Positions 8,512-26,667 of a stretch of DNA of 64,000 nucleotides are shown piece by piece (positions within the stretch are counted from its first letter, which is position 1; each line of letters opens with the position of its first letter). Source of the DNA: Candidatus Omnitrophota bacterium (GTDB taxonomy: Bacteria > Omnitrophota > Gorgyraeia > Duberdicusellales > 4484-171); NCBI GenBank assembly GCA_016935525.1, contig JAFGQU010000004.1, forward strand, positions 65,314 through 129,313. The letters run 5' to 3'. Position numbers and translations under genes: made by a program. The notes beneath the pieces were generated by a model, which was not told where the DNA came from, did no database searches, and worked only from the letters and a program-made list of their open reading frames with translations.

Positions 8512-9156
8512 TCAATGCTCATGACGGATACTTTCAGGGTTTTTCACAAAAAAAAGAGGAAAGACGATATCGCTTACGCAACAGGGCACCCATACCGCAA
8601 TAAATAGGAATAAGAATATCGCGGCATAAGCAAAAAAACTCACCGTCGCTCCTTTCGCCATGAGAATATGGAACAACGAAGCTGCGGTACTGACCAGAAC
8701 GTGGGCAAAATGAGGGAATTTGGTCGCGGGGTTGATATAGGCGATCATAATACCGATAAGCGCCATAGTCGTAATCAGCCACCATCTCTCGAGAAATCCG
8801 ATATGAGCATGCCGGTGCGGCATATCCAACAATACTTCTCCTATATAAGGCATGATCGAATCGCTTACCGTCGCAACTCCGATCGAACCTACATAGCCGA
8901 TTACCAACAACACAAAAAGGTTACAGTGACGCCGGTTATGGGGACAGACATGACGGTGGTACATCGAAGCGGTCACAAGAGCACTGAGGAGTACGTGAGC
9001 CGGATGGAATACGTAAAAGAATTCGTAAGAGACCTCGGGAGTGATGTTACGTAAGAATGCGATCAACCCGATGCCTAATAACGCTCCTAATGCCGTAAAC
9101 GGAGCATGATGACGTAATTCTTTGACGATCTCTCGGAACATAACGGTAGTGCTCAC
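8512..9156 (-). CDS. His/Cys-rich integral membrane protein (putative metal handling)
   Basis: 5-6 TM helices with clustered His/Cys (HRHVCPHNRRHC, MPHRHAHIGF, VPCCVSD). Its start overlaps the glgP stop. Confidence 0.45.
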   Translation of the reverse strand: MSTTVMFREIVKELRHHAPFTALGALLGIGLIAFLRNITPEVSYEFFYVFHPAHVLLSALVTASMYHRHVCPHNRRHCNLFVLLVIGYVGSIGVATVSDSIMPYIGEVLLDMPHRHAHIGFLERWWLITTMALIGIMIAYINPATKFPHFAHVLVSTAASLFHILMAKGATVSFFAYAAIFLFLFIAVWVPCCVSDIVFPLFFVKNPESIRHEH

Positions 9157-11630
9157 TTATGATAAGGGACGCGCCATATTTCTTTGGCGTATTCGGCGAT
9201 AGTCCGGTCGCTGGAAAACCGTCCGGCTTTAGCGACGTTGACGATACTCTTTTTCGTCCATTCTTCCTGATCCAGATAACATTGCGAGACTTTCTGCTGC
9301 ATTGCCAGATACGAATCGAAATCGGCACAGATCATAAACTTATCGTCACTTTCCAGGGATTGAATAATCGGTTCAAAGATACCGGGATTATAGGGAGCAA
9401 AAAAATTCGTCCGTAACAGATGGAATATATCGCGCAGTAACGGTGATTTCTGGATAGAATCATGAGGATTATACCCTTGCCGTTTTAGCGTCGCGACTTG
9501 TTCGGCAGTATGCCCGAAAATAAAAATATTGTCGCGGCCGACTTCCTGAGAGATCTCGACGTTTGCCCCGTCAAGCGTCCCGATAGTGAGCGCTCCGTTC
9601 AGCATAAACTTCATATTCCCGGTACCGGAAGCTTCGTATCCGGCAGTCGAGATCTGTTCGGACACATCCGATGCCGGAAATATTTTTTCCGCCAAGGATA
9701 CCCGGTAATTTTCCAGAAACGCCATACGCAGTTTATCTTTTATCGATTTATCCCGGTTGATCATATCGGCGATACTGGTCAGGAACTTTATAGTCAACTT
9801 TGCCATGACGTATCCCGGAGCGGCTTTTCCGCCCACCAGAAACGTCCGGGGATACACGAATTTTTTCGGGTCGTGTTTAAGCAGTAAATATTGCGATACG
9901 ATATAAAATCCGAAAAGGATCTGGCGTTTATACTCATGCATCCGTTTCACCTGCACATCAAAGATAGATTCCGGGTCGATCATGATCTCGGTTGTACGGG
10001 CGATATATTCGGCAAGTTTCTTTTTATTCTCATGTTTGATGTCCCGCCAGGCCTTGCGGAATGGAGCTTTGTCTTTATACGGGATCAATTTACTTAATTG
10101 CGACAGATCGATCACCCATTTGTCACCGATGGTATTGATGATCAGGTCCGACAAACCGGTATTGGCTTTCAGTAACCAGCGGCGTTGAGTGATCCCGTTC
10201 GTTTTATTATTGAATTTTTTAGGGAAAAATTCATAGAAATCGCGGAAGACCCCGGTCTTCAATAGTTCGGTATGTAATTCCGATACCCCGTTTACCGAAT
10301 GGCTTCCCACAATCGCCAGGTTCGCCATGCGGATCCGTTTATGGTCGCCTTCCTCGATGATCGACATCCTGGCGATACGGCCTTCATCGCCGGGAAACCT
10401 TTGCGAAACTTCTTCGAGGAACCGTTTATTGACCTCATAGATAATCTGCAGGTGTCGCGGCAATAGATTCTCCAGACGCGCCACCGACCATTTCTCCAAA
10501 GCTTCCGGCATCACCGTATGGTTAGTATAGGCAAATATCTGCACGACAATATCCCACGCTTCTTCCCATTGAAAATCGCTCTCATCAAGTAAAATACGCA
10601 TTAACTCGACGATACCCAAAATCGGGTGGGTATCGTTAAGTTGAATCGTCACTTTATCCGGCAGTTTAGACAAGTCTTCGTTTTTGACCCGGAACCGGCG
10701 GATAATATCGGCAATGGATGCGGCGACAAAAAAGTATTCCTGTTTAAGGCGAAGTTCTCTCCCCTGGCTGATATCGTCCATGGGATACAATACTTTGGAG
10801 ATGTTTTCCGAAAGGATCTTTTCATGTACGGCCTGTTCATAGTCGCCCTGATTAAAATATTCCAAATCGAATTCTTCGGTACTGCGTGCCGACCATAACC
10901 GCAACGTATTGACTACATCGTTCTTATATCCGGGGATCGGATAATCATAGGGCACCGCGAGGATGTTCTGGGTATCGACCCAATCCACACAAAACCGGCC
11001 GTGACGGTCTTTATACATCTGGGTCCTCCCGTAAAATTTTACCCGTACGGTATACTCCGGCCGGGCAAATTCCCAGGGGCTTTCCCGCCGTAACCATTCA
11101 TCAGGCAGTTCTATCTGAAACCCGTCTTTTATCTTTTGATGAAAAATACCGTAATCGTAACGGATACCATATCCGTATCCCGGGATGCCTAACGTCGCCA
11201 TCGAATCAAGAAAACAGGCGGCAAGCCGGCCTAATCCGCCGTTACCTAACCCGGCATCGAGTTCCTGCTGGCGAACCTCCTCAAAATTAAGGCCCAGTTC
11301 CGTAAGAGCCTGCGCGGTTTTATTCTCTAATCCCAGATTGAAAATATAGTTCCCCAAAAGCCGGCCGATTAAAAATTCCATTGAAAGATAATAGACCCGT
11401 TTCACATTCGCTTTATGATAATGCTGTTGAGTGTTGATCCAACGTTCCACTACCCGGTCACGGACAGTGAGCGCTAATGCTCGGAAATTGTCTTCCAGCG
11501 TCGCGCTGTATTGGTCTTTGGAAAGGGCATATTTTAAGTTGGCGCAGAATGAGGTCACAATACCTTCAACGGTATTTTTTTTACTGATCTCATCGCATTT
11601 TTCCTCTAGTTTTTTATTCATTTTTGCCAT
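9153..11630 (-). CDS. glgP: glycogen/alpha-glucan phosphorylase
   Basis: PLP-lysine motif EASGTGNMKFMLNGALTIGTLDGANVEI. About 825 aa from the internal Met (MAKMNKK). The ORF as reported extends to 11705. Confidence 0.9.
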   Translation of the reverse strand: MAKMNKKLEEKCDEISKKNTVEGIVTSFCANLKYALSKDQYSATLEDNFRALALTVRDRVVERWINTQQHYHKANVKRVYYLSMEFLIGRLLGNYIFNLGLENKTAQALTELGLNFEEVRQQELDAGLGNGGLGRLAACFLDSMATLGIPGYGYGIRYDYGIFHQKIKDGFQIELPDEWLRRESPWEFARPEYTVRVKFYGRTQMYKDRHGRFCVDWVDTQNILAVPYDYPIPGYKNDVVNTLRLWSARSTEEFDLEYFNQGDYEQAVHEKILSENISKVLYPMDDISQGRELRLKQEYFFVAASIADIIRRFRVKNEDLSKLPDKVTIQLNDTHPILGIVELMRILLDESDFQWEEAWDIVVQIFAYTNHTVMPEALEKWSVARLENLLPRHLQIIYEVNKRFLEEVSQRFPGDEGRIARMSIIEEGDHKRIRMANLAIVGSHSVNGVSELHTELLKTGVFRDFYEFFPKKFNNKTNGITQRRWLLKANTGLSDLIINTIGDKWVIDLSQLSKLIPYKDKAPFRKAWRDIKHENKKKLAEYIARTTEIMIDPESIFDVQVKRMHEYKRQILFGFYIVSQYLLLKHDPKKFVYPRTFLVGGKAAPGYVMAKLTIKFLTSIADMINRDKSIKDKLRMAFLENYRVSLAEKIFPASDVSEQISTAGYEASGTGNMKFMLNGALTIGTLDGANVEISQEVGRDNIFIFGHTAEQVATLKRQGYNPHDSIQKSPLLRDIFHLLRTNFFAPYNPGIFEPIIQSLESDDKFMICADFDSYLAMQQKVSQCYLDQEEWTKKSIVNVAKAGRFSSDRTIAEYAKEIWRVPYHK

Positions 11631-11717
11631 AGGGCTCCTTCTCTCAGCCGGCACCTTCATCCGGTACCAGCATATTATTATATGGCAGAAAGCGGTATCT
11701 GCCAATTATTCTGATTT

Positions 11718-15421: not shown

Positions 15422-15471
15422 GGTATTACATACATGAGTACCGGCGATAGAGAAGAAATATCTCTCCTGAT

Positions 15472-16449: not shown

Positions 16450-16527
16450 GAAATTAAGGATGATTAATAAAAATATTATAACAGAAAGGGCTGGTTTCGT
16501 CAGAGGTTTTTAAATGCGCCCCCGGGT

Positions 16528-18108
16528 TTATCCACGGTCGGACTCCGGTTGGGATGATGCGACTTTCAAGCGGATCGTGACTTTGGCTCCCGTGTCTTTT
16601 TTATTTTCAACCGTAACCGTGCCCCTATGCATAAGTATGATATTATTCACTACCGAAAGCCCCAGTCCGGTTCCGCCCTGCAGGCGTTTTGTCGTGACAA
16701 AAGGATCGAATATCGATTCAAGCACTTCTTGAGGTATCCCGCATCCGGTATCTTCGATCTCGACAAATACCGCTTCTTCACCGATACGGAACGTATCGGT
16801 CCGGCGATGCCCGACACCGTCGCCCGACTCACTTAAGACTTTAGCGTAAGTCCGCAAGGTGAGAACACCTTGAGCCGGCATCGCTTGGATCGCGTTAAGG
16901 AAAAGATTCATACATACCTGTATAAGCTTATTTTCATCGACTACCACCGGAGGGATATGTTCATCAAAATCTTTATTTACTTTGATCCGGCTTTTATCCA
17001 ACTGGAATCTCACCAGTATCAGCGATTTTTCTAACAATTCGTTTACCGGATAGGCCGCAAGGTTTAATTCCGACGTTTTAGAAAAATCCAAAAGTTCTTT
17101 GATGATCCGGTCGGCCCGGGTGACTGCCTCACCCATATCACGGATCACCATTTGAATATTTTCGCATTCTGCGCCTTGAAATTCGTGACGGATATAATCG
17201 ATTCCCATAAGAATGGTCGTTAAAGGGTTTTTGACTTCATGAGCGACCCCGCTGGCTAATTTTCCTACTACTTCCATCTTTGCCGCGGCTACCAGTTGGC
17301 TTTGAGTATTCATCAATACCTCATAGGCGCGACGTAATTCTTCCTGAGTGTTTTTCAATTCGGTAATATCGATAATGACGCCGTCCAGGTATAAAAAGTT
17401 GCCGGCCGGATCAAACACCCCCTGGCCCCGTTCATATACCCATTTTATCCCCCCGGAAGAATGACACACGCGATATTCGATCGTGTAAGGTTTTTTGCCG
17501 CTCACCCCGGCCTGGACAATATCATCCACCATCTGCCGATCGTCAGGATAAATAATGCTGGCATACGTCCGTACGGAATTATTCAGAAATTCACCGGCCG
17601 GATATCCGCTTAAAGCTTCTATTTCCTGGCTGATATACTCCATTCTCCAATCGGGATCATTGGCACAACGGTAAATGACCCCCGGAACGTTTGCGACCAG
17701 AGTTTTCAGCTGCGTTTCGCTTTGCCGTAACGCGTTTTCCATATTTTTATTTTCGGTAACGTCAAAAATAGCTCCGATTAATCCCGCGACTCCGCCTTCT
17801 TCATCCGTAAAGGTCGCTTTATGGAAGATCACCTCGCGGATCTCACCCTGGCTGGTTTTGATCTTCCATTCATACACCTGTACTCCCGGGGTTTCCAATA
17901 ATTCGTTATCTTTCTGAAAATAAGTATCGGCGATCTCTTTGGGCCCTATATCGTACACAGTCTTACCGACTAACTCCTGGCGGGTCATCCCTACCAGCTC
18001 GGTAAACGCCCGGTTACAACCTACATATTGGCCTTCGCGGTTTTTATAGAAAATCGGTATCGGCAGAGAATCAATAAGTACCTGCAAAAAGTTATAGTTT
18101 TGCATCAC
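16528..18108 (-). CDS. cytoplasmic tandem-PAS sensor histidine kinase
   Basis: Two PAS domains, H-box HEVKNPLTTI, HATPase G-boxes (DTGCGIP, GGTGLGLS). No TM segments. No adjacent response regulator. Confidence 0.85.
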   Translation of the reverse strand: MMQNYNFLQVLIDSLPIPIFYKNREGQYVGCNRAFTELVGMTRQELVGKTVYDIGPKEIADTYFQKDNELLETPGVQVYEWKIKTSQGEIREVIFHKATFTDEEGGVAGLIGAIFDVTENKNMENALRQSETQLKTLVANVPGVIYRCANDPDWRMEYISQEIEALSGYPAGEFLNNSVRTYASIIYPDDRQMVDDIVQAGVSGKKPYTIEYRVCHSSGGIKWVYERGQGVFDPAGNFLYLDGVIIDITELKNTQEELRRAYEVLMNTQSQLVAAAKMEVVGKLASGVAHEVKNPLTTILMGIDYIRHEFQGAECENIQMVIRDMGEAVTRADRIIKELLDFSKTSELNLAAYPVNELLEKSLILVRFQLDKSRIKVNKDFDEHIPPVVVDENKLIQVCMNLFLNAIQAMPAQGVLTLRTYAKVLSESGDGVGHRRTDTFRIGEEAVFVEIEDTGCGIPQEVLESIFDPFVTTKRLQGGTGLGLSVVNNIILMHRGTVTVENKKDTGAKVTIRLKVASSQPESDRG

Positions 18109-18261: not shown

Positions 18262-19419
18262 TTATAGAGAAAGCAATCGGGATGCCTCATCGAGCTTCTC
18301 ATAGAGTTTGGGGATCCAGGCATCGCCCCAGAAAAGATAACAGCTCGTTTCGGCATCAAGGATCAGCTCTTTTGCTTCATCGATCTTCTTCTTCTGGGAG
18401 GCAGTAAGGCCTTTTTTCTTTTCTACATCATGATGCCGGCGCCTTACGCTAAAAAGCTTCTCGATCGCTCTTTTTTGCGATTCCGACCCGTTCCACTGAG
18501 AAAAATCGTATCCGGATGTGGATGCGACATTCCAGGCTCCGGTCTGGACACGAGCGTGATCGCGGGGAGGATATTTTTTTATGAATTCCGATATTTTTAC
18601 AGGAGTGATCCCGGCTTTTTTTTCTTTAATCTTCTCCATCAGCGGCGCAAAAAAATATCCAAAAAATCCGGAGTTCTCATCCATCTGCCGAAACCATCCT
18701 CCATTTTCGCCGTCCGACCAAGTAGTCACCAGTCGCGCTTTTTCTTGAGAAGAATATTCTTTTAATTTACGGGTCACCTCATCGATAAACCAGGAAGGGT
18801 TCATCCCGCTTTCCTGGGCATTGGAAATATCCCGGTTGCGCGGAATCACCGCGATTTCATTTTTTTCATATGTTATCCGGTAAGGTTTAAAACAATCGGG
18901 TTTCTCCCGGTCTTTAAGAGGTTTCACGTGTACATGATCGACTACCACATATTCATACCCGGCCTCATCCAAGGCCGGAATCATCTCCATAGAAAACGCC
19001 ATTTCCGACGGCCAGAATCCTTTCGGGCTCTTCTTGAACAGACGTTCCACGATATCTTTGCCGCGCTTTAACTGTTCGGCCCAATCTTCTCTGGGGATAA
19101 GCGGGAAGATCGGGTGGTAATAGCCCATACCGATAATCTCGATGTTATCGGCCTGACGGTACCGTTCGATCATCTCAGGGATATCTACGAACTTTTTGTA
19201 CCGGGAGACGATTTCGGGATCGGTGAACTGTTCGAGTAAAATCCCGGAAAACCCGACATGAAAAGAAACGATATCTTTATAGGTATCAGCGTACCGCGGG
19301 GCGCGTTCATAACATTTTATGATCTGTTGTGCTTCCCACTCGTTGGTATCGATAAGTAACCGCAGGTTTCCCGGCGGTTGATGCATATGTAATCCTAACG
19401 CATAATAAGTAGTCTTCAT
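18262..19419 (-). CDS. glycoside hydrolase family 57 protein (385 aa)
   Basis: GH57 region I LHMHQP, region III GFWPSEMA (nucleophile Glu), region IV WSDGENGGWF (acid/base Asp). Confidence 0.75.
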   Translation of the reverse strand: MKTTYYALGLHMHQPPGNLRLLIDTNEWEAQQIIKCYERAPRYADTYKDIVSFHVGFSGILLEQFTDPEIVSRYKKFVDIPEMIERYRQADNIEIIGMGYYHPIFPLIPREDWAEQLKRGKDIVERLFKKSPKGFWPSEMAFSMEMIPALDEAGYEYVVVDHVHVKPLKDREKPDCFKPYRITYEKNEIAVIPRNRDISNAQESGMNPSWFIDEVTRKLKEYSSQEKARLVTTWSDGENGGWFRQMDENSGFFGYFFAPLMEKIKEKKAGITPVKISEFIKKYPPRDHARVQTGAWNVASTSGYDFSQWNGSESQKRAIEKLFSVRRRHHDVEKKKGLTASQKKKIDEAKELILDAETSCYLFWGDAWIPKLYEKLDEASRLLSL

Positions 19420-19491
19420 TTCTATCCGATTGAGTAAAATCCGCTCTTAAAGGGGATCAAGGAGCTTACCGGAGCATACTGAGTCTGCCGG

Positions 19492-20229
19492 TCATACCCG
19501 CGCCAGCGCTTTTTCCGCTTCCCGTAACGCTTCTTTGCTGCCGATATCCAGCCATTCGCCGGTCAATGTGCTGCCGTAAACCGGTGATTTTTTAAGTACC
19601 CATTCGATATATTTGCCGGCGACATCAGACTGAGCCCCATTAGCAAGATATTCATGCAGATACCGCATCGATTGATAAGGGAAAAAGTATACGCAGGTAG
19701 CGACCAAGGTGGAGGAAGGTTTTTGCGGTTTTTCGATAAGTTCGATGATCCGCGATTTTTCATCAAGTTTGACCACACCGAACCGGGTTGCCTCCTCTTT
19801 TTTCTTCACGTCATAAAGAGCGATACAAGGGTGAGGCCGTACATGTAAGGAGAAATCGATGAAGTTAGTCAAGTCGTCTTCGAAAATATTGTCGCCCCCG
19901 ACGACCAGGCAATCTTCTCCTTCCTGCTTTAAAGCCAACTGGATCGCCTTAATCGCGCCTTTTCGGTCCTCAGGAGTATTTGACCCATCATTGACGATCT
20001 CTATATCAAACTGGTTTTTATTCCGCCATTTGAGAAAATGAGGATGGAAACGGTTATTCGATACCACACTCACCCCGGAAACCGGACAATAATTCTTCAG
20101 ATTATCTATTTTTTCTATAAGGTAATTGATGATCGGTTTATTATTCACCTCTAAAAGAGGTTTGGGAGTATTGACCGTGAGCGGATAAAGCCGGGTCCCA
20201 TACCCTGCCGCCAAAATCACTATGTTCAT
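19492..20229 (-). CDS. short-form sugar-1-phosphate nucleotidyltransferase (NDP-glucose pyrophosphorylase-like)
   Basis: N-terminal ILAAGYGTRLYPLT..PKPLL motif of the NTP_transferase family. At 245 aa it lacks the GlgC C-terminal left-handed beta-helix domain. Confidence 0.75.
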   Translation of the reverse strand: MNIVILAAGYGTRLYPLTVNTPKPLLEVNNKPIINYLIEKIDNLKNYCPVSGVSVVSNNRFHPHFLKWRNKNQFDIEIVNDGSNTPEDRKGAIKAIQLALKQEGEDCLVVGGDNIFEDDLTNFIDFSLHVRPHPCIALYDVKKKEEATRFGVVKLDEKSRIIELIEKPQKPSSTLVATCVYFFPYQSMRYLHEYLANGAQSDVAGKYIEWVLKKSPVYGSTLTGEWLDIGSKEALREAEKALARV

Positions 20230-20292
20230 GCCTTTACCCCCTCTCTTTCTGGGCTATTATAAAAGTTATTATACAATGTTTTTCCGTGTTTT

Positions 20293-21729
20293 TCATTTCA
20301 AAGATTCCTCGCCGCGCCGGCAGATCTCTTTGGCGTATTCAGTCCATACCCCCTGCCCCCAGTAACGGAAACAGCTGGTCTGGGACAACAGCAGGTAGAG
20401 TAACGCCTCTTTATATCTTTTATCGGCAGGATCGGGTTGTTTCTTGAACTTTTCATGAAAAGAAACGCTTAACGTATTGATCGGATCAAGGATATCTTCA
20501 TATCCTTTCACCCAGCTACGGTCATTGGTCCAGGATCCCCGGTCGAGATTGAAACTCGAGTCTTTCTGGTGAATTTTCTCGATCGCACGATCCGCCGCGC
20601 CGGGCGAGAATGTGGAAACTTCCTGCCAGATCCGATGCTGCGATATCGGTTGTATCGCGTCAAACGCATCTTCTTGTATCCCCTGCCCTTTGACATATTC
20701 AAGATATTCCGAGCCGTTCATCGCGACTACGCCTTCAGTTGAGATTTCACCGAACGCCTGTTTGAACCCGGCGGGAAACTCGTTCATCATTACTCCCCCG
20801 TTTTCTCCATCGCCGATCTGAAGCACAAACGGACAGATCGTCTTTTTTCCGTACTCTCGAGGATGTAAGCCTTTGGCTTCATAATAGGGTTGCATCTGGG
20901 CAACGAGTTTAGTATCCGACCCTTGAGTCTTGATCAAAGCGGTGATCTCGGCAACTTCATTTTTTGAATTTTTCGCGATCAACCGGTGAGGGAAATGAGG
21001 GTTACGGATGCCGGAACCGTCAAGATTCTCTACGGTATGTTCCTGGACCATAAGCCACTGGTATCCGCATTCTTTTAACGCTTTGATGTATTCATAACAT
21101 ACATCCGGATGTATGGGCAGATGCATTTCCGGTGGAGAAAAACCTTTTACTCTTCTTAACGCGTCCATTCCGAAAAGAGAAGCAAAATGGTGCCGCCAGG
21201 CGAGCATATGCAGTTTAAGATCGCACACCGGAGTGGAACTTGCCACCGCATGCGACCACATCGTACCCAGCCATTCCGCGTAACGATAATACTTCTTATC
21301 GCAGGTGATCTTTTTCAGATTCTCGATCACCTGAGTCTGGCCCATCTGAGGAAGGCCCCAAAACAAGTTGCCCGAATAATCAAGCATCACCCGGGGATTT
21401 TTCCCCTCCGAGACTAATTCACGTATGAAATCGGATATCCGGCTATAACACCATAAGAATACCGAAGCATTATGATTATCACCCATATCCTGATGTTCCA
21501 TCATATGCTGAAGGTTAGAGATAAGGCCGGCGCCTCTTATATCATCGGTGGATGCGGGAATAGTCGGCTGATGCATATGCAGAGCGACCCCGAAAGACGC
21601 CCGGACCCGGTCAAAATGAAGATTGGAAGTGTCCCGATAATCGTTCTTCACGGAAGACTGCAGCTCTTTTTCTGAATAAGTACCCCAGATATCAGGAAAC
21701 TGAGTAACACGAGGAATAGTCGTTTTCAT
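20293..21729 (-). CDS. glycoside hydrolase family 57 protein (AmyC-like, about 480 aa)
   Basis: Region I ALHMHQP, region III GFSPPEM, region IV GDGENGG. Start placed at MKTTIPR, which gives an ATGA overlap with the upstream branching-enzyme stop. The ORF as reported extends to 21858. Confidence 0.7.
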   Translation of the reverse strand: MKTTIPRVTQFPDIWGTYSEKELQSSVKNDYRDTSNLHFDRVRASFGVALHMHQPTIPASTDDIRGAGLISNLQHMMEHQDMGDNHNASVFLWCYSRISDFIRELVSEGKNPRVMLDYSGNLFWGLPQMGQTQVIENLKKITCDKKYYRYAEWLGTMWSHAVASSTPVCDLKLHMLAWRHHFASLFGMDALRRVKGFSPPEMHLPIHPDVCYEYIKALKECGYQWLMVQEHTVENLDGSGIRNPHFPHRLIAKNSKNEVAEITALIKTQGSDTKLVAQMQPYYEAKGLHPREYGKKTICPFVLQIGDGENGGVMMNEFPAGFKQAFGEISTEGVVAMNGSEYLEYVKGQGIQEDAFDAIQPISQHRIWQEVSTFSPGAADRAIEKIHQKDSSFNLDRGSWTNDRSWVKGYEDILDPINTLSVSFHEKFKKQPDPADKRYKEALLYLLLSQTSCFRYWGQGVWTEYAKEICRRGEESLK

Positions 21730-23444
21730 TTCTTTTTCCTTTTTTTTATAACGGTTTTTTTCAGCTTTACCGCCGGATGAGATGCCGGTTTTTTCTTTTT
21801 TCCGGTACGCGCGGGGTTTATTCTCCCGATTTTTCTGTCCAGATAATACCGGGCACAATCGATATGAGAAAAGATATTATCCCGCCACTCGACTTCACGC
21901 AGCCAATCCTCATCGAGAGTACCGCTGGTGATCAGAGACTCATAAATATGATGAAAACGGTTAATATGGGTTTTCACCCGTTTATGCGCGTAAGGGACCA
22001 TCGTCCCGGTCTTCATGATGAACGGCCAGTCACTCGATTCGGCAAGCAGCAATTCGCGTGCGGCCTGATTAAGCGCGCGACGCACAATACTTTTTTTAGA
22101 CCCGCTGGCCAGGTGAGACGAAAATTTCTCAATAAGTTCAGCCATACAACGGGCAGCTTGATGAAGATAAGGATATACCCAGTCGTTACTTCCTTCAAGC
22201 CAGAATTCGCTATACCCTTTATATCCCCAGGTCGAAAACGAAGGTAACGACATCTGATTAGTAGGATATTCGCTCAGGTATTCCGAAGGGGTGATCAATG
22301 TTACTGTCTGCTGGTCGTAGGCGATCTTTCTTATCAGAAAATCAATCCATAACGGCCCCTCAAACCACCAGTGGCCGAATAATTCAGCATCGTAAGGAGC
22401 AAGAATGATCGGTTTACGGTCCATATGATAGCTGAGATGTTCTATCTGTTTTTCCCGGTTATACATGAAATTACCGGCATGATTTGCCGCTTTTTCTTTC
22501 GCCCAGTCCGGCCGGTACGCTTCTTTATAGTCGGTATTGCCGGTAATACGCCAATACTTCATACCGGTATTGACCCGGAATCCCTCAGGATGGATATACG
22601 GTTTAATGTAATTATATTCCAGCTCATGCCCGATATCGCGATAATACTCCCGGTAATCCGGGTCGCCGGGATACCCTTCTTTCGAACTCCATACCTGTTT
22701 AGAAGATTCCCAATCGCGGCCGAACGCGGCGACTCCCGAAGGACAATAAATGGGAGCATACACGCTGTAACGGGGAACGGGATCGGCATTGATGATCCCG
22801 TGCGAATCGACAATGAAATAACGGATACCCGCTTCTTTCAGGACTTCATCCACCCCGGGATAATATCCGCATTCGGGAAGCCAGAATCCCCGCGGGGCTC
22901 GGCCGAAAGTCTTTTTATAATGTTCTACTCCCACTCGAACCTGAGCCCGTACACTTTCGGGATTCACGCTTAAATTGGGTAAAAAACCGTGCGTCGCGCA
23001 CGATCCGATGATCTCAACTACTCCCAGATCCTGAAATTTTTTGAATGCCGAGACCAGGTCACGATGATACCGGTCAAGAAAGATCTCTTTCGTCTCTTTG
23101 AACCGACGATTATACATAAGTGCCAGTCCGTGATAGTGAGGGTCGAAGCCGGTACGTTCGACTTCTTTTTCCGAAAGTTCTATCAATTTATTGATGTGCC
23201 GGACAAACCGGTTTTGCAGGAGGCCGTCGCGTAACATCGAAACGAGCGGCGGAGTAAAGGACATGGTCATACGGAACGGGACGCCGTCTTCGACGAGACG
23301 GTCAAATATCCGGATCAACGGAATATAGGTCTCGGTAATCGCTTCGAAAAGCCAGTTTTCTTCAAGAAAATATTCTTCTTCCGGGTGCCGGACAAACGGG
23401 AGGTGAGTATGAAGCAATAGGCATAAATATCCTTTTGACGTCAT
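21726..23444 (-). CDS. GH57-type 1,4-alpha-glucan branching enzyme
   Basis: LHTHLP (the HxHLP variant typical of GH57 branching enzymes), GFWLPECGYYPG, PYDAELFGHWWFEGP. About 570 aa with a Lys-rich C-terminal tail. Confidence 0.75.
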   Translation of the reverse strand: MTSKGYLCLLLHTHLPFVRHPEEEYFLEENWLFEAITETYIPLIRIFDRLVEDGVPFRMTMSFTPPLVSMLRDGLLQNRFVRHINKLIELSEKEVERTGFDPHYHGLALMYNRRFKETKEIFLDRYHRDLVSAFKKFQDLGVVEIIGSCATHGFLPNLSVNPESVRAQVRVGVEHYKKTFGRAPRGFWLPECGYYPGVDEVLKEAGIRYFIVDSHGIINADPVPRYSVYAPIYCPSGVAAFGRDWESSKQVWSSKEGYPGDPDYREYYRDIGHELEYNYIKPYIHPEGFRVNTGMKYWRITGNTDYKEAYRPDWAKEKAANHAGNFMYNREKQIEHLSYHMDRKPIILAPYDAELFGHWWFEGPLWIDFLIRKIAYDQQTVTLITPSEYLSEYPTNQMSLPSFSTWGYKGYSEFWLEGSNDWVYPYLHQAARCMAELIEKFSSHLASGSKKSIVRRALNQAARELLLAESSDWPFIMKTGTMVPYAHKRVKTHINRFHHIYESLITSGTLDEDWLREVEWRDNIFSHIDCARYYLDRKIGRINPARTGKKKKPASHPAVKLKKTVIKKRKKK

Positions 23445-23461
23445 CGAACTTTTTTAGATTT

Positions 23462-24601
23462 TTACGAACTGTATCGGGTTTTGTTGCGCCGTACCGAAGT
23501 AGTAATACCACGTTTCTCTATCTTATCTTGAGATTGTGCAACAAAATCAAGAGGAATATACCCGGCATCCGGCAACCCAAAACGGAGGGTAAACGTCCCG
23601 TCGGGACGTAACTTGATATTTTTATCACCCAGCCATACCGTCGCGTCCGGTTCGGTACGGCCGTATACAATCAGTTCAGTCCCGATCTCAAAGAAAAATT
23701 TTCTCACCGGAGACGGTTGATGACTCGCGCCTGAAGAAAGAGTTTCACTGGCGCCGCCTTTTTCAACCATCTCGGCAGAAGATCCCAGAAGGACCTTTCT
23801 TAAGAAATCGCTTCGCGATAATCCCTGGATCAACAGATCGTCAAGGACCACTTTCCCGTCCTGAAGGACTACCTGGTGCTCTTCACGATTCTCACGGGCA
23901 AGCCGCATCGCCACGATCCGCTGCAGGAGCGGAAAAAGACGGGAATAATACGCACGGATATCCGCTTCGGTAAGAAAAATACGGTCACGAAACCGCCGGC
24001 CGTGAGGAGTTACTCCTCCTTCAGTCTGTTTTTTTACGTTTTCGACCAGCACATATGGCTGTGTTTCCAGATCATCTTTTACTTCCATCCAGATCATTTC
24101 TGACCGGCCGGAAGACCCCTGACGGGGAGTAGAGACAAAATTGGAACGGGCAAGCCTCATGAATGTACCGTCGGGAGTACGTAACCCTACATCGGCGCAA
24201 TACGCCGTGTTATCCGACCAGGAATCGATATACCAATTGTGGGTAAACGGCCCGACATCAATATCGAACGCGCGGTTAGGCTGGTCTCCCTTTTTAAAAT
24301 CTTTATAGGTCACATCATATACCCGGACCGTCTGAGTAGACTGTTTAAAAGTCTCCTCTCCCAGATTGTGTTTAGCTTCTTCTAATTTTTCCGGAGCCAC
24401 ATTCCAGTAAGCATGGACCCAATGGGGATCCCGGGCCATAAGCGTAATGTTAGTATTGTTCTGTTGAGCAGGAAGATCCTGATTGTCGACCGAAACCGGT
24501 TTTGTCAATGTAGGCGGCCGTACCGGAACATATTCCGGAGATCTTGAGGGAATACTGGATGCGGCATTTGTTTGAGTTTTATTATTTTGTGAACGTGCCA
24601 C
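23462..24601 (-). CDS. DUF4912-domain protein
   Basis: DPHWVHAYWNV signature near the N-terminus. This family is commonly adjacent to GH57/glycogen genes. Confidence 0.5.
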   Translation of the reverse strand: MARSQNNKTQTNAASSIPSRSPEYVPVRPPTLTKPVSVDNQDLPAQQNNTNITLMARDPHWVHAYWNVAPEKLEEAKHNLGEETFKQSTQTVRVYDVTYKDFKKGDQPNRAFDIDVGPFTHNWYIDSWSDNTAYCADVGLRTPDGTFMRLARSNFVSTPRQGSSGRSEMIWMEVKDDLETQPYVLVENVKKQTEGGVTPHGRRFRDRIFLTEADIRAYYSRLFPLLQRIVAMRLARENREEHQVVLQDGKVVLDDLLIQGLSRSDFLRKVLLGSSAEMVEKGGASETLSSGASHQPSPVRKFFFEIGTELIVYGRTEPDATVWLGDKNIKLRPDGTFTLRFGLPDAGYIPLDFVAQSQDKIEKRGITTSVRRNKTRYSS

Positions 24602-24613
24602 TTAAATCCCCTT

Positions 24614-25774
24614 TTAACTATTATACACAATCAATGCCTGATCAGCTATTGTATCCCAGGAAAAAACCGTCTCAACCGCAACTCGCCCGTTACGCCCCAT
24701 CCATCGGCCATATTCAAAATCAGAGAACAACGTGCCTAACCCCCAGGCAATAGAATCGGGATGGATATAAGTTTTAAGACCGTTCACTTCATGCCAGATG
24801 ATCTCAGACGGCCCGCCTGAGTCACACGCGACGACCGGTTTACCCGAACTCCAGGCTTCAAGTAATACTATGCCAAACGGTTCGTTTCGACTGGGCACAC
24901 ATACACAGTCGCAGGCTTTATAAAGGTCCGCCAGACGCCACCCGTTGAGGAATCCGGGAAACCGGGTAGCATGACTCACCCCTAATTGTCCGGCCCTCTC
25001 TTCAACACTCCTGCGCATCTCACCGTCCCCGACAAACACGAATTTCGCATGGGGATAATATTTCAATATATGGGGGATCGCTTCGATCAACAGATCCGGC
25101 CCTTTTTGATATACGATCCTTCCCACGAAAAGGACCATCGGATCCATCGGGCCGATCCCGTACATAGTGCGCACTGCCGCCGGATCAATCCACCCGTCAT
25201 AATTCCAATAACTGATCCCGTTATAGATCACATCGATCTTTCCGTCGGGAACGTGATACATCCACTGTGCTTCATTTTTGAGAGATTTTGATACCGCGAT
25301 CACCCGGTCGGCACAGTAAGTGCCCAACCATTCGTGATGACGTATCCGTTCGGAGTTGCCGTTAAAAAAGTTATTCCCGCACCTCCCGTATTCGGTAGAA
25401 TGGAGGGTAAACACCCCTTTATGCCCTCTCCCCTTTTTTATCCAATCAAGCGCATTGGCGGTCAACCAGTCGTGAGCGTGGACAATATCAAACCGTCCGA
25501 TATGATTTTCGGTCTGAAAAAAAGCGTCAACGAAAGAACGGCACATATTGTTGGTTTCTTCAATGAAATCGGAATGGAAAGAATAAGGGCACCGATGATA
25601 GTGGACGCCGTGGATACATTCATACCACGGTTGGCCGGGGTCACCGACCCGGGTGAACACATGGATCTCATGCCCTTTACGGGCAAGAGCCGCGGCGAGC
25701 TCGGTAATATGAAACGCGATGCCTCCAACAGTGATGGAATGCAGGGATTCCCACGCAAAAAGAGCTACTTTCAT
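24614..25774 (-). CDS. glgA: glycogen-synthase-like GT-B glycosyltransferase (GT4/GT5)
   Basis: N-terminal KVALFAWESLHSITVGGIAFHITELA, which resembles archaeal-type glycogen synthases. C-terminal LEAWSSGKPVVACDSGG. Confidence 0.7.
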   Translation of the reverse strand: MKVALFAWESLHSITVGGIAFHITELAAALARKGHEIHVFTRVGDPGQPWYECIHGVHYHRCPYSFHSDFIEETNNMCRSFVDAFFQTENHIGRFDIVHAHDWLTANALDWIKKGRGHKGVFTLHSTEYGRCGNNFFNGNSERIRHHEWLGTYCADRVIAVSKSLKNEAQWMYHVPDGKIDVIYNGISYWNYDGWIDPAAVRTMYGIGPMDPMVLFVGRIVYQKGPDLLIEAIPHILKYYPHAKFVFVGDGEMRRSVEERAGQLGVSHATRFPGFLNGWRLADLYKACDCVCVPSRNEPFGIVLLEAWSSGKPVVACDSGGPSEIIWHEVNGLKTYIHPDSIAWGLGTLFSDFEYGRWMGRNGRVAVETVFSWDTIADQALIVYNS

Positions 25775-26083
25775 TTATGCACCCACTTCAAGAACCGAGT
25801 TGATTGTCCCGAAAGAATTTTTTGAAGTATTGGAATTGATCGGATCAGTCCACCACTGACCGTCTACGATAAATTTATATTCATACCGGCCGGGATTAAG
25901 GGTCATACCGATACTCCATACTCCGTTACGGTCCTTTTTCATTTTCGTGCCATTGGTGTTCCACGAATTAAAATCACCGGTTAGAGCGACTTTTTTGGCA
26001 TCAGGAGCGGTTAACTGAAAATCGACTTTCTTCCCGGCGCTCTTTTTAGCGACACTCGGTTTCAGGACTTTGGTAATTTTCAT
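25775..26083 (-). CDS. CBM48 / AMPK-beta-like glycogen-binding domain protein
   Basis: FQLTAPDAKKVALTGDFNSWNTNGTKMKKDRNGVWSIGMTLNPGRYEYKFIVDGQWWTDP matches the CBM48 fold signature. Start placed at MKITKV, which has an AAGGGGG RBS upstream. The ORF as reported extends to 26143. Confidence 0.6.
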   Translation of the reverse strand: MKITKVLKPSVAKKSAGKKVDFQLTAPDAKKVALTGDFNSWNTNGTKMKKDRNGVWSIGMTLNPGRYEYKFIVDGQWWTDPINSNTSKNSFGTINSVLEVGA

Positions 26084-26667
26084 ATTTGCCCCCTTTCTCT
26101 TGGTTTGGGTTATTTTCTTTTGCACCGAACTTTTGTTTCTCATTCTTACCCCCTTTTTTCTATTGTGCTCCCGGGCATACCTGTAGGATGCAATGAAAAT
26201 TCGTTATTGAAAAGATAATGGAAATGACTCCGGAACTTCCCTTTTATATAAAGACATCCCTGTCCATTCTGCTGGCAGGTATCAATCAGGAGATTATATT
26301 ATGTTATTAATTAAAGTTTTAGTCAATTATTTTTTTAAATAACTTATTATCCCTCTCGGCCGCCTGACGGACGAGAAGCATCCGTCCATCGAAAAAAGCT
26401 TTAAAATGAAGGGGTATTCTCCTCAGGGAACGCTTTTTGCCGGGAGAACCTCGGAAGCGGCCCGATGAAAAATCCCGGATCCGGTTCACCGAAAAACACC
26501 GGATTTTCTTCGGGAGCTTTTCCCGGCCGGGAGGCATCTCCTCTCGCCGGATAAAAAGACAGGGTATCTGATTATAATAAAAAGGCCCCTCAGAGGACGT
26601 ATTTGCGAACCCTTCACGCTCACGAAAAATACCCCTATTCATAAGAAAAATGACTACGGTTTTTTTG

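What the first reader, a model, noticed from the sequence alone, without database searches (positions are those of the whole stretch)
18262..26143. GH57-based glycogen island: three GH57 paralogs including a GH57 branching enzyme, DUF4912, CBM48 and a short NDP-sugar pyrophosphorylase
Seven co-directional genes form the block. They are a CBM48 protein, a glycogen-synthase-like GT, DUF4912, a GH57 branching enzyme (HxHLP), an AmyC-like GH57 (ATGA-coupled to the branching enzyme), a 245-aa nucleotidyltransferase and a 385-aa GH57. No GH13 GlgB or GlgX, and no canonical about 420-aa GlgC, are present here. Two features are non-classical. One is the all-GH57 toolkit. The other is the NDP-glucose donor, presumably made by a short nucleotidyltransferase that lacks the GlgC regulatory domain. 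The role of the DUF4912 protein is unknown.
Basis: partly seen in the sequence, partly recalled or inferred. Interest (0 to 1): 0.6.

Follow-up and report, generated by a model that had tools for sequence, protein, structure and literature searches.

The report
Conserved GH57 alpha-glucan gene module
An uncultivated Omnitrophota bacterium carries a seven-gene operon for making and remodelling a glycogen-like sugar store, and its core pairs an AmyC-type GH57 enzyme with an uncharacterised DUF4912 protein, a gene pair seen in at least five phyla and absent from the literature searches made here.

Summary
All seven minus-strand genes exist at 18262-26143, in an NCBI Omnitrophota MAG. Two labels were swapped. 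The 572-aa "branching enzyme" is the AmyC-like gene: T. maritima AmyC scores 532 bits, and it lacks the flexible Tyr loop of high-activity GH57 branching enzymes. The 478-aa "AmyC-like" gene is a divergent catalytic-domain-only GH57 with amylopullulanase-type motifs. It has no Pfam hit but a GH57 fold.

The block is not one unit. In 80 Omnitrophota loci the array (CBM48)-GT-DUF4912-GH57(AmyC-type)-GH57x is almost invariant: GT 64/66, BE 68/69, GH57x 56/59, CBM48 44/64. The short nucleotidyltransferase (1/55) and the 385-aa GH57 (4/49) are lineage-specific add-ons.

"No GH13, no GlgC" holds for the 64-kb window, but a glycogen phosphorylase lies 6.5 kb away. In relatives the same module sits beside canonical GlgA, GlgB, GlgC, GlgX, MalQ and GlgP. 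The module therefore adds to the classical pathway in the phylum rather than replacing it.

The new point is the DUF4912 to AmyC-type GH57 gene pair. It recurs in Hydrogenedentota, Abyssobacteria, Poribacteria and Planctomycetota MAGs and in 33 of 48 metagenome loci. DUF4912 is probably a non-catalytic partner of these weakly branching enzymes. Everything here is computational.

The parts
26298..26326 (-). Sigma-70-like promoter candidate (TTGACT-17-CATAAT, 10 of 12) about 155 nt upstream of the CBM48 gene
   Evidence: Weak evidence only: the number of promoter-like sites in the region is no higher than in shuffled sequence.
25775..26143 (-). 122-aa stand-alone CBM48 protein with a Lys-rich N-terminus and no signal peptide. 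Probably a glycogen/alpha-glucan-binding adaptor.
   Evidence: PF16561 61 bits and PF02922 46 bits. The FNSW, YKF and DGQWW motifs are visible in the sequence. Present upstream of the GT in 44 of 64 Omnitrophota loci.
24614..25774 (-). 386-aa retaining GT-B glycosyltransferase on the GT4/GT5 border. Probably an NDP-glucose-dependent alpha-1,4-glucan synthase, or a GlgM-like maltose-1-phosphate synthase.
   Evidence: Pfam. TIGR02149 scores 146 bits against a cut-off of 302. PDB profile hits: MshA 120, GlgM 117 (full length), P. abyssi glycogen synthase 103 bits. Only 28% identity over 127 aa to the phylum's own GT5 GlgA. Present in 64 of 66 loci at 63-87% identity.
23462..24601 (-). 379-aa DUF4912 protein. 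It has a basic disordered N-terminus, a DUF4912 beta-sandwich (residues 48-166), a conserved helix (LTEADIRAYYSRLFP), GASE-type repeats and a small C-terminal beta domain (about residues 300-366).
   Evidence: PF16258 107 bits. Alignment A2. AF2 model with pLDDT above 90 for residues 50-160. FN3-like fold matches. It was the search query for all 80 loci, and BE57 follows it in 68 of 69.
21726..23444 (-). 572-aa GH57 plus BE_C enzyme of the AmyC/TmGBE57 type, a loop-less 'GH57 branching enzyme', with a Lys-rich C-terminal tail.
   Evidence: Pfam. PDB: AmyC 2b5d 532 bits, collinear over residues 4-529, against 311, 291 and 248 bits for true GBEs, whose beta-strand and Tyr-loop insertions align to gaps in the query. 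All 109 DUF4912-linked homologues have the same loop-less segment lengths.
20293..21729 (-). 478-aa divergent catalytic-domain-only GH57 ('GH57x'), translationally coupled to the previous gene by an ATGA overlap. Motifs are amylopullulanase-type: HMHQP, PPEM, DGENGG and QTSCFRYW.
   Evidence: E201 and D307 are invariant in 32 homologues. Present in 56 of 59 loci at 62-84% identity.
19492..20229 (-). 245-aa sugar-1-phosphate nucleotidyltransferase, catalytic domain only. A lineage-specific insertion.
   Evidence: PF00483 137 bits. The best NCBIfam families are all far below cut-off. Best PDB hit is the short RmlA 3hl3, 79 bits. Found at this position only in the nearest relative L002.
18262..19419 (-). 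385-aa small GH57 ('GH57s'), a paralog of GH57x carrying HMHQP, WPSEM, DGENGG and ETSCYLFW. A variable accessory gene.
   Evidence: PF03065 127 bits. PDB: T. litoralis 4-alpha-glucanotransferase 2.7e-13 and SmApu 1e-8. Present after GH57x in 4 of 49 loci.
9153..11705 (-). 850-aa GT35 glycogen/alpha-glucan phosphorylase, the likely degradative partner. It lies outside the reported block.
   Evidence: PF00343 1102 bits. Orthologues lie within 10 kb of the module in L042, L050, L052, L065 and L070. The orthologue in L065 scores 1193 bits on TIGR02093.

Best explanation
The locus is a cytoplasmic operon for building and remodelling alpha-1,4/alpha-1,6-glucan (glycogen-like polymer).

Its ancestral unit is a two-gene pair: a DUF4912 protein followed by a loop-less, AmyC-type GH57 enzyme. 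Omnitrophota expanded this pair into a fixed array of CBM48 protein, GT4-like glucosyltransferase, DUF4912, AmyC-type GH57 and a second, amylopullulanase-like GH57.

Proposed mechanism (inferred, not shown):
- The GT extends alpha-1,4 chains from an NDP-glucose, or supplies maltose-1-phosphate.
- The AmyC-type GH57 transfers chain segments, by alpha-1,6 branching and alpha-1,4 transglycosylation.
- GH57x trims or debranches.
- The CBM48 protein and the DUF4912 protein are non-catalytic. They bind the polymer and/or the enzymes and hold the catalysts on the growing particle.

In this genome two lineage-specific genes were added. One is a short hexose-1-phosphate nucleotidyltransferase, a likely local source of NDP-glucose. 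The other is an extra small GH57. A phosphorylase 6.5 kb away mobilises the polymer. The module supplements the classical GlgC/GlgA/GlgB route in the phylum rather than replacing it.
For: - Domain content and intact catalytic motifs in all three GH57s.
- None of the seven N-termini contains a hydrophobic signal-peptide-like stretch (sequence).
- Operon-like spacing and the ATGA overlap. The BE57 to GH57x junction stays within -38 to +42 nt in the 45 loci measured.
- Near-invariant order in 80 Omnitrophota loci, with 62-87% identity for the three enzymes.
- Neighbours in relatives pass curated cut-offs or carry the defining domains. GlgA scores 560 against a cut-off of 328. GlgB scores 977 against 741. 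GlgX scores 838 against 641. MalQ scores 674 against 477. GlgP scores 1193 against 553. The 417-aa GlgC carries the LbH_GLGC domain.
- GlgP is present in the window.
- The DUF4912 to GH57+BE_C pair occurs in Hydrogenedentota, Abyssobacteria, Poribacteria and Planctomycetota MAGs and in 33 of 48 metagenome loci. All these enzymes are of the loop-less type.
- A triad of DUF4912, BE57 and a second GH57 occurs in another lineage.
- DUF4912 is an Ig/FN3-like beta-sandwich with cross-phylum conserved Trp and Tyr residues, and it occurs in tandem arrays of 3-10 copies, as binding modules do.
- AmyC-type enzymes have low intrinsic branching activity: 10.5 against 480-550 mU/mg (PMC10346327).
Against: - No experiment of any kind supports this, and no expression data were found.
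- The GT cannot be assigned. MshA, GlgM and archaeal glycogen synthase score alike.
- The nucleotidyltransferase specificity is unknown, and its best matches are RmlA-like.
- Gemmataceae and 14 of 48 metagenome loci have DUF4912 without an adjacent GH57.
- Some DUF4912 arrays sit in apparently secreted proteins with a PstS-like domain, so the domain is not restricted to glycogen.
- The FN3-like fold is generic. Glucan binding is inferred, not shown.
- Non-Omnitrophota homologues carry a Rho_N domain, which hints at nucleic-acid rather than glucan binding.
Confidence: 0.6

Rival explanations
1. The block is a self-sufficient, non-classical glycogen pathway that replaces GlgC, GlgA, GlgB and GlgX with a short nucleotidyltransferase, a GT4-like synthase and three GH57 enzymes.
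For: No GH13 and no GlgC-size enzyme lies in the 64-kb window. The block contains a donor-forming enzyme, a GT, a branching-type GH57 and two amylopullulanase-like GH57s. A different non-GlgC nucleotidyltransferase (an NTP+LbH+PGM fusion) sits in a DUF4912/BE57/GlgA locus of another lineage.
Against: The nucleotidyltransferase and the 385-aa GH57 are absent from nearly all orthologous loci (1 of 55 and 4 of 49). In relatives the module lies beside canonical GlgA, GlgB, GlgC, GlgX and MalQ. Published Omnitrophota MAG tables list GlgA, GlgB and GlgC. The rest of the 216.7-kb source contig and genome was not available for inspection.
Confidence: 0.2
2. The module makes a specialised small alpha-glucan or a precursor rather than bulk glycogen. 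One option is a mycobacterial MGLP-like oligosaccharide, by analogy with the Rv3032 GT4 plus Rv3031 GH57 cluster. Another is a GlgM-type maltose-1-phosphate route in which a GH57 takes over the polymerising role of GlgE.
For: The pairing of a GT4-like GT with a GH57 mirrors Rv3032/Rv3031 (PMC4555173). GlgM (6tvp) is a full-length, near-top structural relative of the GT at 117 bits, and TIGR02149 is the best NCBIfam family. Coexistence with classical GlgA and GlgB in relatives argues for a non-redundant product. A methyltransferase follows GH57x in L003.
Against: No methyltransferase or acyltransferase is conserved in the array. TIGR02149 scores less than half its cut-off. No GlgE, TreS or Pep2 appears among the recurrent neighbours. 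CBM48 and the phosphorylase point to a glycogen-like polymer. No GH57 is known to use sugar-1-phosphate donors (own knowledge).
Confidence: 0.12
3. The block is a catabolic locus. The GH57 enzymes degrade imported starch or maltodextrin, or prey glycogen, and the GT and CBM proteins are incidental.
For: AmyC was first described as an amylase and has high hydrolytic activity (title of PMC6616209). The amylopullulanase-type motifs of GH57x and GH57s imply hydrolysis of alpha-1,4 and alpha-1,6 bonds. A phosphorylase lies nearby. Omnitrophota are described as sugar fermenters.
Against: There are no signal peptides. There are no transporter or binding-protein genes in or next to the block. A GT is invariant in the array (64 of 66). 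Biosynthetic GlgA and GlgC are adjacent in relatives.
Confidence: 0.08

Closest known systems
Thermotoga maritima AmyC (TmGBE57, PDB 2b5d), the loop-less majority class of GH57 'glycogen branching enzymes'
   Same: The 572-aa protein aligns collinearly over residues 4-529 at 532 bits. It has the GH57 and BE_C domains and the catalytic Glu (WLPECGY) and Asp (YDAELFGHWW). [quoted passage not shown]
   Different: It has a Lys-rich C-terminal tail. It is always preceded by a DUF4912 gene and, in Omnitrophota, followed by a coupled second GH57. Whether AmyC itself has a DUF4912 neighbour could not be checked.
Classical bacterial glycogen genes glgC-glgA-glgB-glgX-glgP
   Same: The inferred chemistry is the same: NDP-glucose formation, alpha-1,4 elongation, alpha-1,6 branching, trimming and phosphorolysis. 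A GT35 phosphorylase is present. In relatives the classical genes are physically adjacent.
   Different: The GT is not GT5 GlgA (TIGR02095 scores 85 against a cut-off of 328; 28% identity over 127 aa to the phylum's own GlgA). The nucleotidyltransferase lacks the LbH regulatory domain. The branching and trimming enzymes are GH57, not GH13. There are two extra non-catalytic proteins.
Aquifex aeolicus GH57 amylopullulanase AaApu (477 aa, catalytic domain only)
   Same: GH57x (478 aa) and GH57s share its architecture and motif pattern. AaApu has HMHQP, WPPEAS, DGENCW and AEGSDW. GH57x and GH57s have HMHQP, (S/W)P(P/S)EM, DGENGG and (Q/E)TSC..(Y/F)W. The best Foldseek hit of GH57x is the S. marinus amylopullulanase.
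   Different: There is no detectable sequence similarity by phmmer or hmmsearch for GH57x. TM-scores are only 0.44-0.50. Activity is untested.
Mycobacterial MGLP cluster Rv3030-Rv3032, and archaeal GT4+GH57 clusters noted as unresolved in Chem Rev 2024 (PMC11046441)
   Same: A GT4-type alpha-1,4-glucosyltransferase is encoded next to a GH57 branching-enzyme-like protein, alongside a separate classical glycogen pathway.
   Different: There is no conserved methyltransferase or acyltransferase. CBM48, DUF4912 and a second GH57 are present instead.
Plant PTST proteins (CBM48 plus coiled coil) that target starch synthases to granules (own knowledge, not tested here)
   Same: A small non-catalytic CBM48 protein is encoded with a glucan synthase. 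This suggests an adaptor that brings an enzyme lacking its own CBM to the polymer.
   Different: This is a functional analogy only. There is no coiled coil and no evidence of interaction.

Membership tests
CAZy GH57 (the 572-aa and 385-aa proteins) | Pfam PF03065 above the gathering score, plus the catalytic Glu (CSR-3) and Asp (CSR-4) | tested here: met
   Scores are 142 and 127 bits against a cut-off of 21.2. The motifs WLPEC/YDAELFGHWW and WPSEM/SDGENGG are visible in the sequence.
CAZy GH57 (the 478-aa GH57x) | Sequence-model membership (PF03065) | tested here: not met
   No Pfam or NCBIfam hit at E of 0.01 or better. No PDB sequence or profile hit. Some close homologues do carry a precomputed PF03065 hit.
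CAZy GH57 (the 478-aa GH57x) | (beta/alpha)7-barrel GH57 fold with conserved sequence regions and the catalytic Glu/Asp | tested here: met
   The AF2 model has pLDDT 83 and pTM 0.87. The top seven Foldseek PDB hits are all GH57, with E from 2e-8 to 6e-6. hhalign to the 385-aa GH57 gives probability 97.5%, with HMHQP, PEM, DGENGG and TSC..W aligned. E201 and D307 are invariant.
High-activity ('true') GH57 glycogen branching enzymes (T. kodakarensis / P. horikoshii / T. thermophilus type) | A flexible loop of 17-20 aa with a Tyr at its tip, plus two adjacent beta-strands (PMC10346327) | tested here: not met
   In the alignments to 5wu7 and 3n8t the target insertions after query residues 196 and about 222 align to gaps in the query. 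Segment lengths are identical to the loop-less type in all 109 homologues. NF041133 and NF041566 score 345 and 314 bits against cut-offs of 1000 and 920.
AmyC/TmGBE57-type GH57 (GH57 plus BE_C, loop-less) | A full-length collinear match to AmyC together with a BE_C (PF09210) domain | tested here: met
   2b5d scores 532 bits with E of 1e-158 over residues 4-529. PF09210 scores 122 bits.
GH57 amylopullulanase (AaApu type), for GH57x and GH57s | [quoted passage not shown] | not testable with these tools
   The motif pattern matches. The activity needs an enzyme assay.
GlgC, ADP-glucose pyrophosphorylase (the 245-aa protein) | NTP_transferase plus a C-terminal LbH regulatory domain, and TIGR02091 above its cut-off | tested here: not met
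   The protein has the catalytic domain only. TIGR02091 scores 70.6 against a cut-off of 424.9.
RmlA, glucose-1-phosphate thymidylyltransferase (the 245-aa protein) | TIGR01207 or TIGR01208 above the cut-off; context of rmlBCD genes | tested here: not met
   Scores are 73.5 against 360.7 and 111.6 against 320.3. No rmlBCD-like genes are among those annotated in the window.
GT5 glycogen synthase GlgA (the 386-aa GT) | TIGR02095 above its cut-off | tested here: not met
   It scores 85.4 against 328.5. Only the N-terminal PF08323 domain passes, at 64.6 against 22.7. Similarity to the phylum's GlgA is weak.
GT4 GlgM, alpha-maltose-1-phosphate synthase (the 386-aa GT) | TIGR02149 above its cut-off; glucose-1-phosphate as acceptor | tested here: inconclusive
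   It aligns full length, but at 145.7 against 302.4. PDB 6tvp scores 117 bits, equal to MshA at 120. The acceptor cannot be tested here.
CBM48 | PF02922 or PF16561 above the gathering score | tested here: met
   Scores are 46.4 against 22.4 and 60.8 against 26.8.
Pfam DUF4912 (PF16258) | The model scores above its gathering score | tested here: met
   It scores 107 against 29.4 over residues 48-166.
Mycobacterial MGLP-type cluster | A conserved methyltransferase and acyltransferase beside the GT4 and the GH57 | tested here: not met
   Neither occurs in the conserved array. A methyltransferase follows GH57x only in L003.

The most novel reading that the evidence does not exclude
DUF4912 proteins are the missing partner of the loop-less AmyC-type GH57 enzymes, which make up about 92% of annotated GH57 'branching enzymes'. 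They bind the enzyme and/or the glucan. That would turn a weak branching enzyme into an effective one, or place it on the nascent granule. Their Rho_N or Lys-rich N-termini may tether granule biogenesis to a polyanionic cell structure, by analogy with the plant PTST/MFP1 granule-initiation factors. This would make the DUF4912 plus GH57 pair a two-component glucan-remodelling unit conserved across at least five phyla.
Probability: 0.3. Interest if true: 0.7.

Novelty: new variant of a known kind. Interest (0 to 1): 0.55.

Why it matters
Three open points in prokaryotic alpha-glucan metabolism become directly testable.

1. Most GH57 "branching enzymes" lack the Tyr loop and branch poorly in vitro (PMC10346327). 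A conserved upstream partner gene offers an explanation and an obvious co-assay.

2. GT4-type transferases nested among GH57 genes are flagged as unresolved in the 2024 Chem Rev survey (PMC11046441). Here such a GT is fixed in a phylum-wide array at 63-87% identity, which gives good targets for biochemistry.

3. DUF4912 has about 5,900 clusters at 50% identity. The full-text searches made here found no functional study of it. Gene-neighbourhood evidence now ties one large branch of the family to alpha-glucan enzymes.

For Omnitrophota, which are ultra-small and uncultivated, the module is among the most conserved multi-gene arrays seen here. It suggests that glucan storage is central to their physiology.

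Tried and rejected
- Sequence and profile searches of GH57x against the PDB found nothing meaningful. Only structure prediction plus Foldseek, and hhalign to the paralog, placed it in GH57.
- Rfam over window 8000-30000 gave no match. There is therefore no known riboswitch or leader.
- The promoter and terminator scan is not above chance for promoters. One candidate upstream of the CBM48 gene is listed with low weight.
- I tried to decide the GT between glycogen synthase, GlgM and MshA using a 21-sequence profile. The scores were too close (120, 117 and 103 bits).
- The source genome beyond the window could not be reached. It is not a species representative in genome contigs; the best locus had 67% identity. 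The exact-match look-up returned only a 19.7-kb Logan contig. Absence of glgC and glgB genome-wide is therefore untested.
- Literature searches for DUF4912 and for GH57 with Rho-like proteins found no functional study.
- I considered and rejected 'DUF4912 is a glycogenin-like primer', because it has no GT domain.
- I considered and rejected 'secreted amylolytic system', because there are no signal peptides or transporters.

Full report
**Source and anatomy.** The window comes from an NCBI metagenome-assembled genome labelled Candidatus Omnitrophica/Omnitrophota. The 478-aa and 379-aa proteins are identical to MBN2482844.1 and MBN2482846.1, on a 216,718-bp contig. The same locus is on a 19.7-kb Logan contig.

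Seven minus-strand ORFs fill 18262-26143. The spacings are 0, 12 and 17 nt, then a 4-nt ATGA overlap, then 63 and 72 nt. A 153-nt gap precedes the next gene, a PAS histidine kinase. None of the seven N-termini contains a hydrophobic signal-peptide-like stretch (sequence). No Rfam family matches in 8000-30000. A sigma-70-like site lies upstream of the first gene at 26326-26298, but such sites are no more frequent here than in shuffled sequence.

**Check of the seven labels.** Pfam confirms six of them:
- CBM48/AMPK1_CBM for the 122-aa protein.
- A GT-B transferase with an N-terminal Glyco_transf_5 domain for the 386-aa protein.
- DUF4912 for residues 48-166 of the 379-aa protein.
- GH57 plus BE_C for the 572-aa protein.
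- A bare NTP_transferase domain for the 245-aa protein.
- GH57 for the 385-aa protein.

The 478-aa protein has no Pfam or NCBIfam hit and no PDB sequence or profile hit.

An AlphaFold2 model built on 32 homologues has pLDDT 83 and pTM 0.87. Its seven best Foldseek PDB matches are all GH57 enzymes: S. marinus amylopullulanase, the GH57 branching enzymes and AmyC. GH38 mannosidases, the related fold, come next.

A profile of the 478-aa family aligns almost end to end with the 385-aa GH57, with probability 97.5% and E of 7e-12. The HMHQP, PEM, DGENGG and TSC..W motifs are in register. The same profile barely matches the 572-aa paralog, with probability 8.8%. The putative nucleophile E201 and acid/base D307 are invariant.

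These motifs resemble those of the Aquifex aeolicus catalytic-domain-only amylopullulanase, which are HMHQP, WPPEAS, DGENCW and AEGSDW (PMC12106739). So there really are three GH57 paralogs, but the 478-aa one is amylopullulanase-like, not AmyC-like.

**The 'branching enzyme' is the AmyC-like gene.** Against the PDB, the 572-aa protein matches T. maritima AmyC (2b5d) at 532 bits, collinear over residues 4-529. The P. horikoshii, T. kodakarensis and T. thermophilus branching enzymes reach only 311, 291 and 248 bits. Their insertions after query residues 196 and about 222 align to gaps in the query.

[quoted passage not shown] The loop-less majority is about 92%. Its representative is TmGBE57, the T. 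maritima GH57 GBE, which that paper's reference list identifies with AmyC. It branches at 10.5 mU/mg against 480-550 for the T. kodakarensis enzyme, and shows more alpha-1,4-transglycosylation (PMC10346327). 'GH57 branching enzyme' is therefore right at the subfamily level. The enzyme belongs to the class whose in-vivo role is still unclear.

**The GT and the nucleotidyltransferase.** The best NCBIfam family for the GT is TIGR02149, the GlgM/'glgA_Coryne' family, aligned full length at 146 bits against a cut-off of 302. With a 21-sequence profile, MshA (120 bits), GlgM (117, full length) and the P. abyssi glycogen synthase (103) are nearly tied. The GT shares only 28% identity over 127 residues with a bona fide GT5 GlgA from the same phylum.

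It is a retaining GT4/GT5-border transferase. Its alpha-glucan role rests on context.

The 245-aa enzyme resembles short RmlA-like, archaeal GlmU-N and AglF-type hexose-1-phosphate nucleotidyltransferases. All of these are far below their cut-offs. Its nucleotide and sugar cannot be called.

**The rest of the window.** I scanned the ORFs of 300 aa or more with Pfam. Two of 318 and 320 aa were not scanned, and a 379-aa ORF was annotated through. No GH13 enzyme and no GlgC-like protein was found. A GT35 glycogen phosphorylase (850 aa, 1102 bits) lies at 9153-11705 on the same strand, and a second GT4 at 14150-15421.

**Conservation within the phylum.** A scan of one genome per species with the DUF4912 protein family returned 80 loci. 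All are Omnitrophota-type, although some carry automated 'Planctomycet*' labels. Results from tblastn and ORF clustering, counted over loci with enough flanking sequence:
- GT directly upstream of DUF4912 in 64 of 66 loci.
- The AmyC-type GH57 directly downstream in 68 of 69.
- GH57x next in 56 of 59.
- CBM48 first in 44 of 64.
- The short nucleotidyltransferase in 1 of 55, and only in the nearest relative.
- The 385-aa GH57 in 4 of 49.

Identities to the window proteins are high for an entire phylum, with medians of 71% (GT), 72% (BE57) and 66% (GH57x). The BE57 to GH57x junction stays within -38 to +42 nt in the 45 loci measured.

**Neighbours of the module in relatives.** The recurrent neighbours are classical glycogen genes that pass curated cut-offs or carry the defining domains:
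- GlgA (GT5).
- GlgB (GH13).
- GlgX.
- MalQ.
- GlgP.
- A 417-aa GlgC with an LbH_GLGC domain.

Other recurrent neighbours:
- A T. litoralis-type GH57 4-alpha-glucanotransferase.
- A GH57+DUF3536 protein.
- A 403-aa GH57.
- Tandem GalT-like genes.
- A LuxR-type two-component pair, identified by eye from its sequences.

Published tables for Ace Lake Omnitrophota also list GlgC, GlgA and GlgB (PMC8542988). The 'non-classical, all-GH57, no GlgC' picture is therefore local to this stretch of this genome. The module is an addition to the classical pathway, not a substitute for it, at least across the phylum.

**DUF4912.** The Omnitrophota protein has five parts:
- A variable Lys-rich N-terminus.
- The DUF4912 domain.
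- A conserved helix.
- GASE-type repeats.
- A conserved C-terminal beta domain (FFFE..LIVYGRTEPDA..DGTFTLRFALPDG).

The model is confident only for the DUF4912 domain, with pLDDT above 90. That domain is an FN3/Ig-like beta-sandwich.

A profile of the domain finds 5,857 clusters at 50% identity. These include proteins with 3-10 tandem copies. One has six copies fused to a PstS-like binding protein.

Outside Omnitrophota, the homologues keep the DUF4912 and C-terminal domains but start with a Rho_N domain. These are the 'Rho-like' proteins noted without a function in cyanobacteria (PMC13613805).

Their gene context is striking. A GH57+BE_C gene follows immediately in Hydrogenedentota, Abyssobacteria, Poribacteria and Planctomycetota MAGs. 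In three of these the pair stands alone among unrelated genes; in Abyssobacteria a second GH57 precedes it. The same holds in 33 of 48 metagenome loci with enough downstream sequence. Gemmataceae and 14 of those 48 loci lack it.

All 109 DUF4912-linked GH57+BE_C proteins, 73 from Omnitrophota and 36 from elsewhere, have the loop-less AmyC-type segment lengths.

One other lineage has DUF4912, BE57 and a second 553-564-aa GH57, tightly packed. Another embeds the pair between a GH57 4-alpha-glucanotransferase, a GalT-like gene, an NTP-transferase/phosphoglucomutase fusion and GlgA.

None of the full-text searches made here (DUF4912; GH57 with 'Rho termination factor') turned up a paper linking DUF4912 to GH57 enzymes or glycogen.

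**Interpretation.** Shown by computation:
- The gene content.
- Intact catalytic motifs.
- A phylum-wide fixed order.
- Physical linkage to classical glycogen genes.
- A cross-phylum gene pair of DUF4912 and an AmyC-type GH57.

Inferred:
- The GT makes alpha-1,4 chains, or maltose-1-phosphate.
- BE57 branches or transglycosylates.
- GH57x trims or debranches.
- The CBM48 and DUF4912 proteins are non-catalytic binding or targeting partners.
- The window-specific nucleotidyltransferase feeds NDP-glucose locally.
- The phosphorylase degrades the product.

The main uncertainties are these:
- The GT's true reaction.
- The donor nucleotide.
- Whether DUF4912 binds glucan, enzyme or nucleic acid. The Rho_N and Lys-rich ends point to a polyanion.
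- Whether this genome has classical glg genes elsewhere.

**Comparison and novelty.** The system works like a glycogen operon, and each enzyme belongs to a known superfamily. It differs from every described arrangement in three ways:
- Its fixed five-gene architecture.
- Its use of a GT4-like transferase alongside, not instead of, GT5 GlgA in the phylum.
- The DUF4912 partner of a loop-less GH57.

Co-occurrence of GH13 and GH57 branching enzymes with complementary action is known in Petrotoga (PMC10708623). GT4 genes nested among GH57 genes are flagged as unresolved in archaea (PMC11046441). The mycobacterial Rv3032/Rv3031 pair is a formal analogue (PMC4555173).

I rate this a new variant of a known kind. 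Interest is moderate at 0.55. Most of that comes from the testable DUF4912 to AmyC-type GH57 partnership rather than from the 'all-GH57 island' idea originally proposed.

Noticed in passing
window 9153-11705 (-): An 850-aa GT35 glycogen/alpha-glucan phosphorylase (PF00343, 1102 bits) lies 6.5 kb downstream of the block on the same strand.
   Followed up: partly
window 14150-18108 (-): A run of three genes, PAS histidine kinase (526 aa), DHH/DHHA1 phosphoesterase (325 aa) and a second GT4 (423 aa), follows the block. The same order is kept in the nearest relative L002 at 61-73% identity. In many other Omnitrophota a LuxR-type response regulator and a histidine kinase sit directly upstream of the CBM48 gene instead.
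   Followed up: partly
window 26084-26143, 24480-24601 and 21726-21830 (protein termini): Three proteins of the block carry Lys-rich, probably disordered tails: the CBM48 N-terminus, the DUF4912 N-terminus and the BE57 C-terminus (...GKKKKPASHPAVKLKKTVIKKRKKK). Some DUF4912 homologues even score for the histone-H1-like PF07382 family (P0211, P0229). Outside the phylum a Rho_N domain takes the N-terminal position. The meaning is unknown.
   Followed up: no
proteins P0241, P0243, P0245, P0258, P0260, P0331, P0334: These are giant proteins of 824-1633 aa with 3-10 tandem DUF4912 domains. P0243 fuses six copies to a PstS-like PBP_like_2 domain. Several start with a hydrophobic, signal-like N-terminus. 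So DUF4912 is also used as a repeated module outside the cytoplasm.
   Followed up: partly
L006, L012, L026, L030, L035, L044, L046, L048 (tandem) and L142:4844-5953: GalT-like (HIT-family hexose-1-phosphate nucleotidyltransferase) genes, often as tandem duplicates, recur next to the module in Omnitrophota. One sits directly upstream of DUF4912 in an unrelated lineage. They may provide an alternative route to or from NDP-glucose.
   Followed up: partly
L142:9362-11845: An 827-aa fusion of NTP_transferase, LbH and phosphoglucomutase domains lies between an AmyC-type GH57 and GlgA in a non-Omnitrophota metagenome locus. It is another non-GlgC way of making an NDP-hexose within a glycogen locus.
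   Followed up: no
L003:14298-15035: A 245-aa SAM-dependent methyltransferase takes the position after GH57x where the window has its 245-aa nucleotidyltransferase. It has the same length but is an unrelated family.
   Followed up: no
L002, L009, L010, L016, L018 and other loci: Many MAGs titled 'uncultured Planctomycetia/Planctomycetales bacterium', and one titled 'Deltaproteobacteria', carry the Omnitrophota-type five-gene array at 44-67% DUF4912 identity. Their taxonomic labels are probably automated and imprecise.
   Followed up: no
window 225-1619 (-), 6574-7584 (-), 62644-63909 (-): Two sizeable ORFs (464 and 336 aa) have no Pfam family. A 421-aa ORF has only weak, sub-threshold TIM-barrel glycosidase matches (GH72 and GH2_C).
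   Followed up: no
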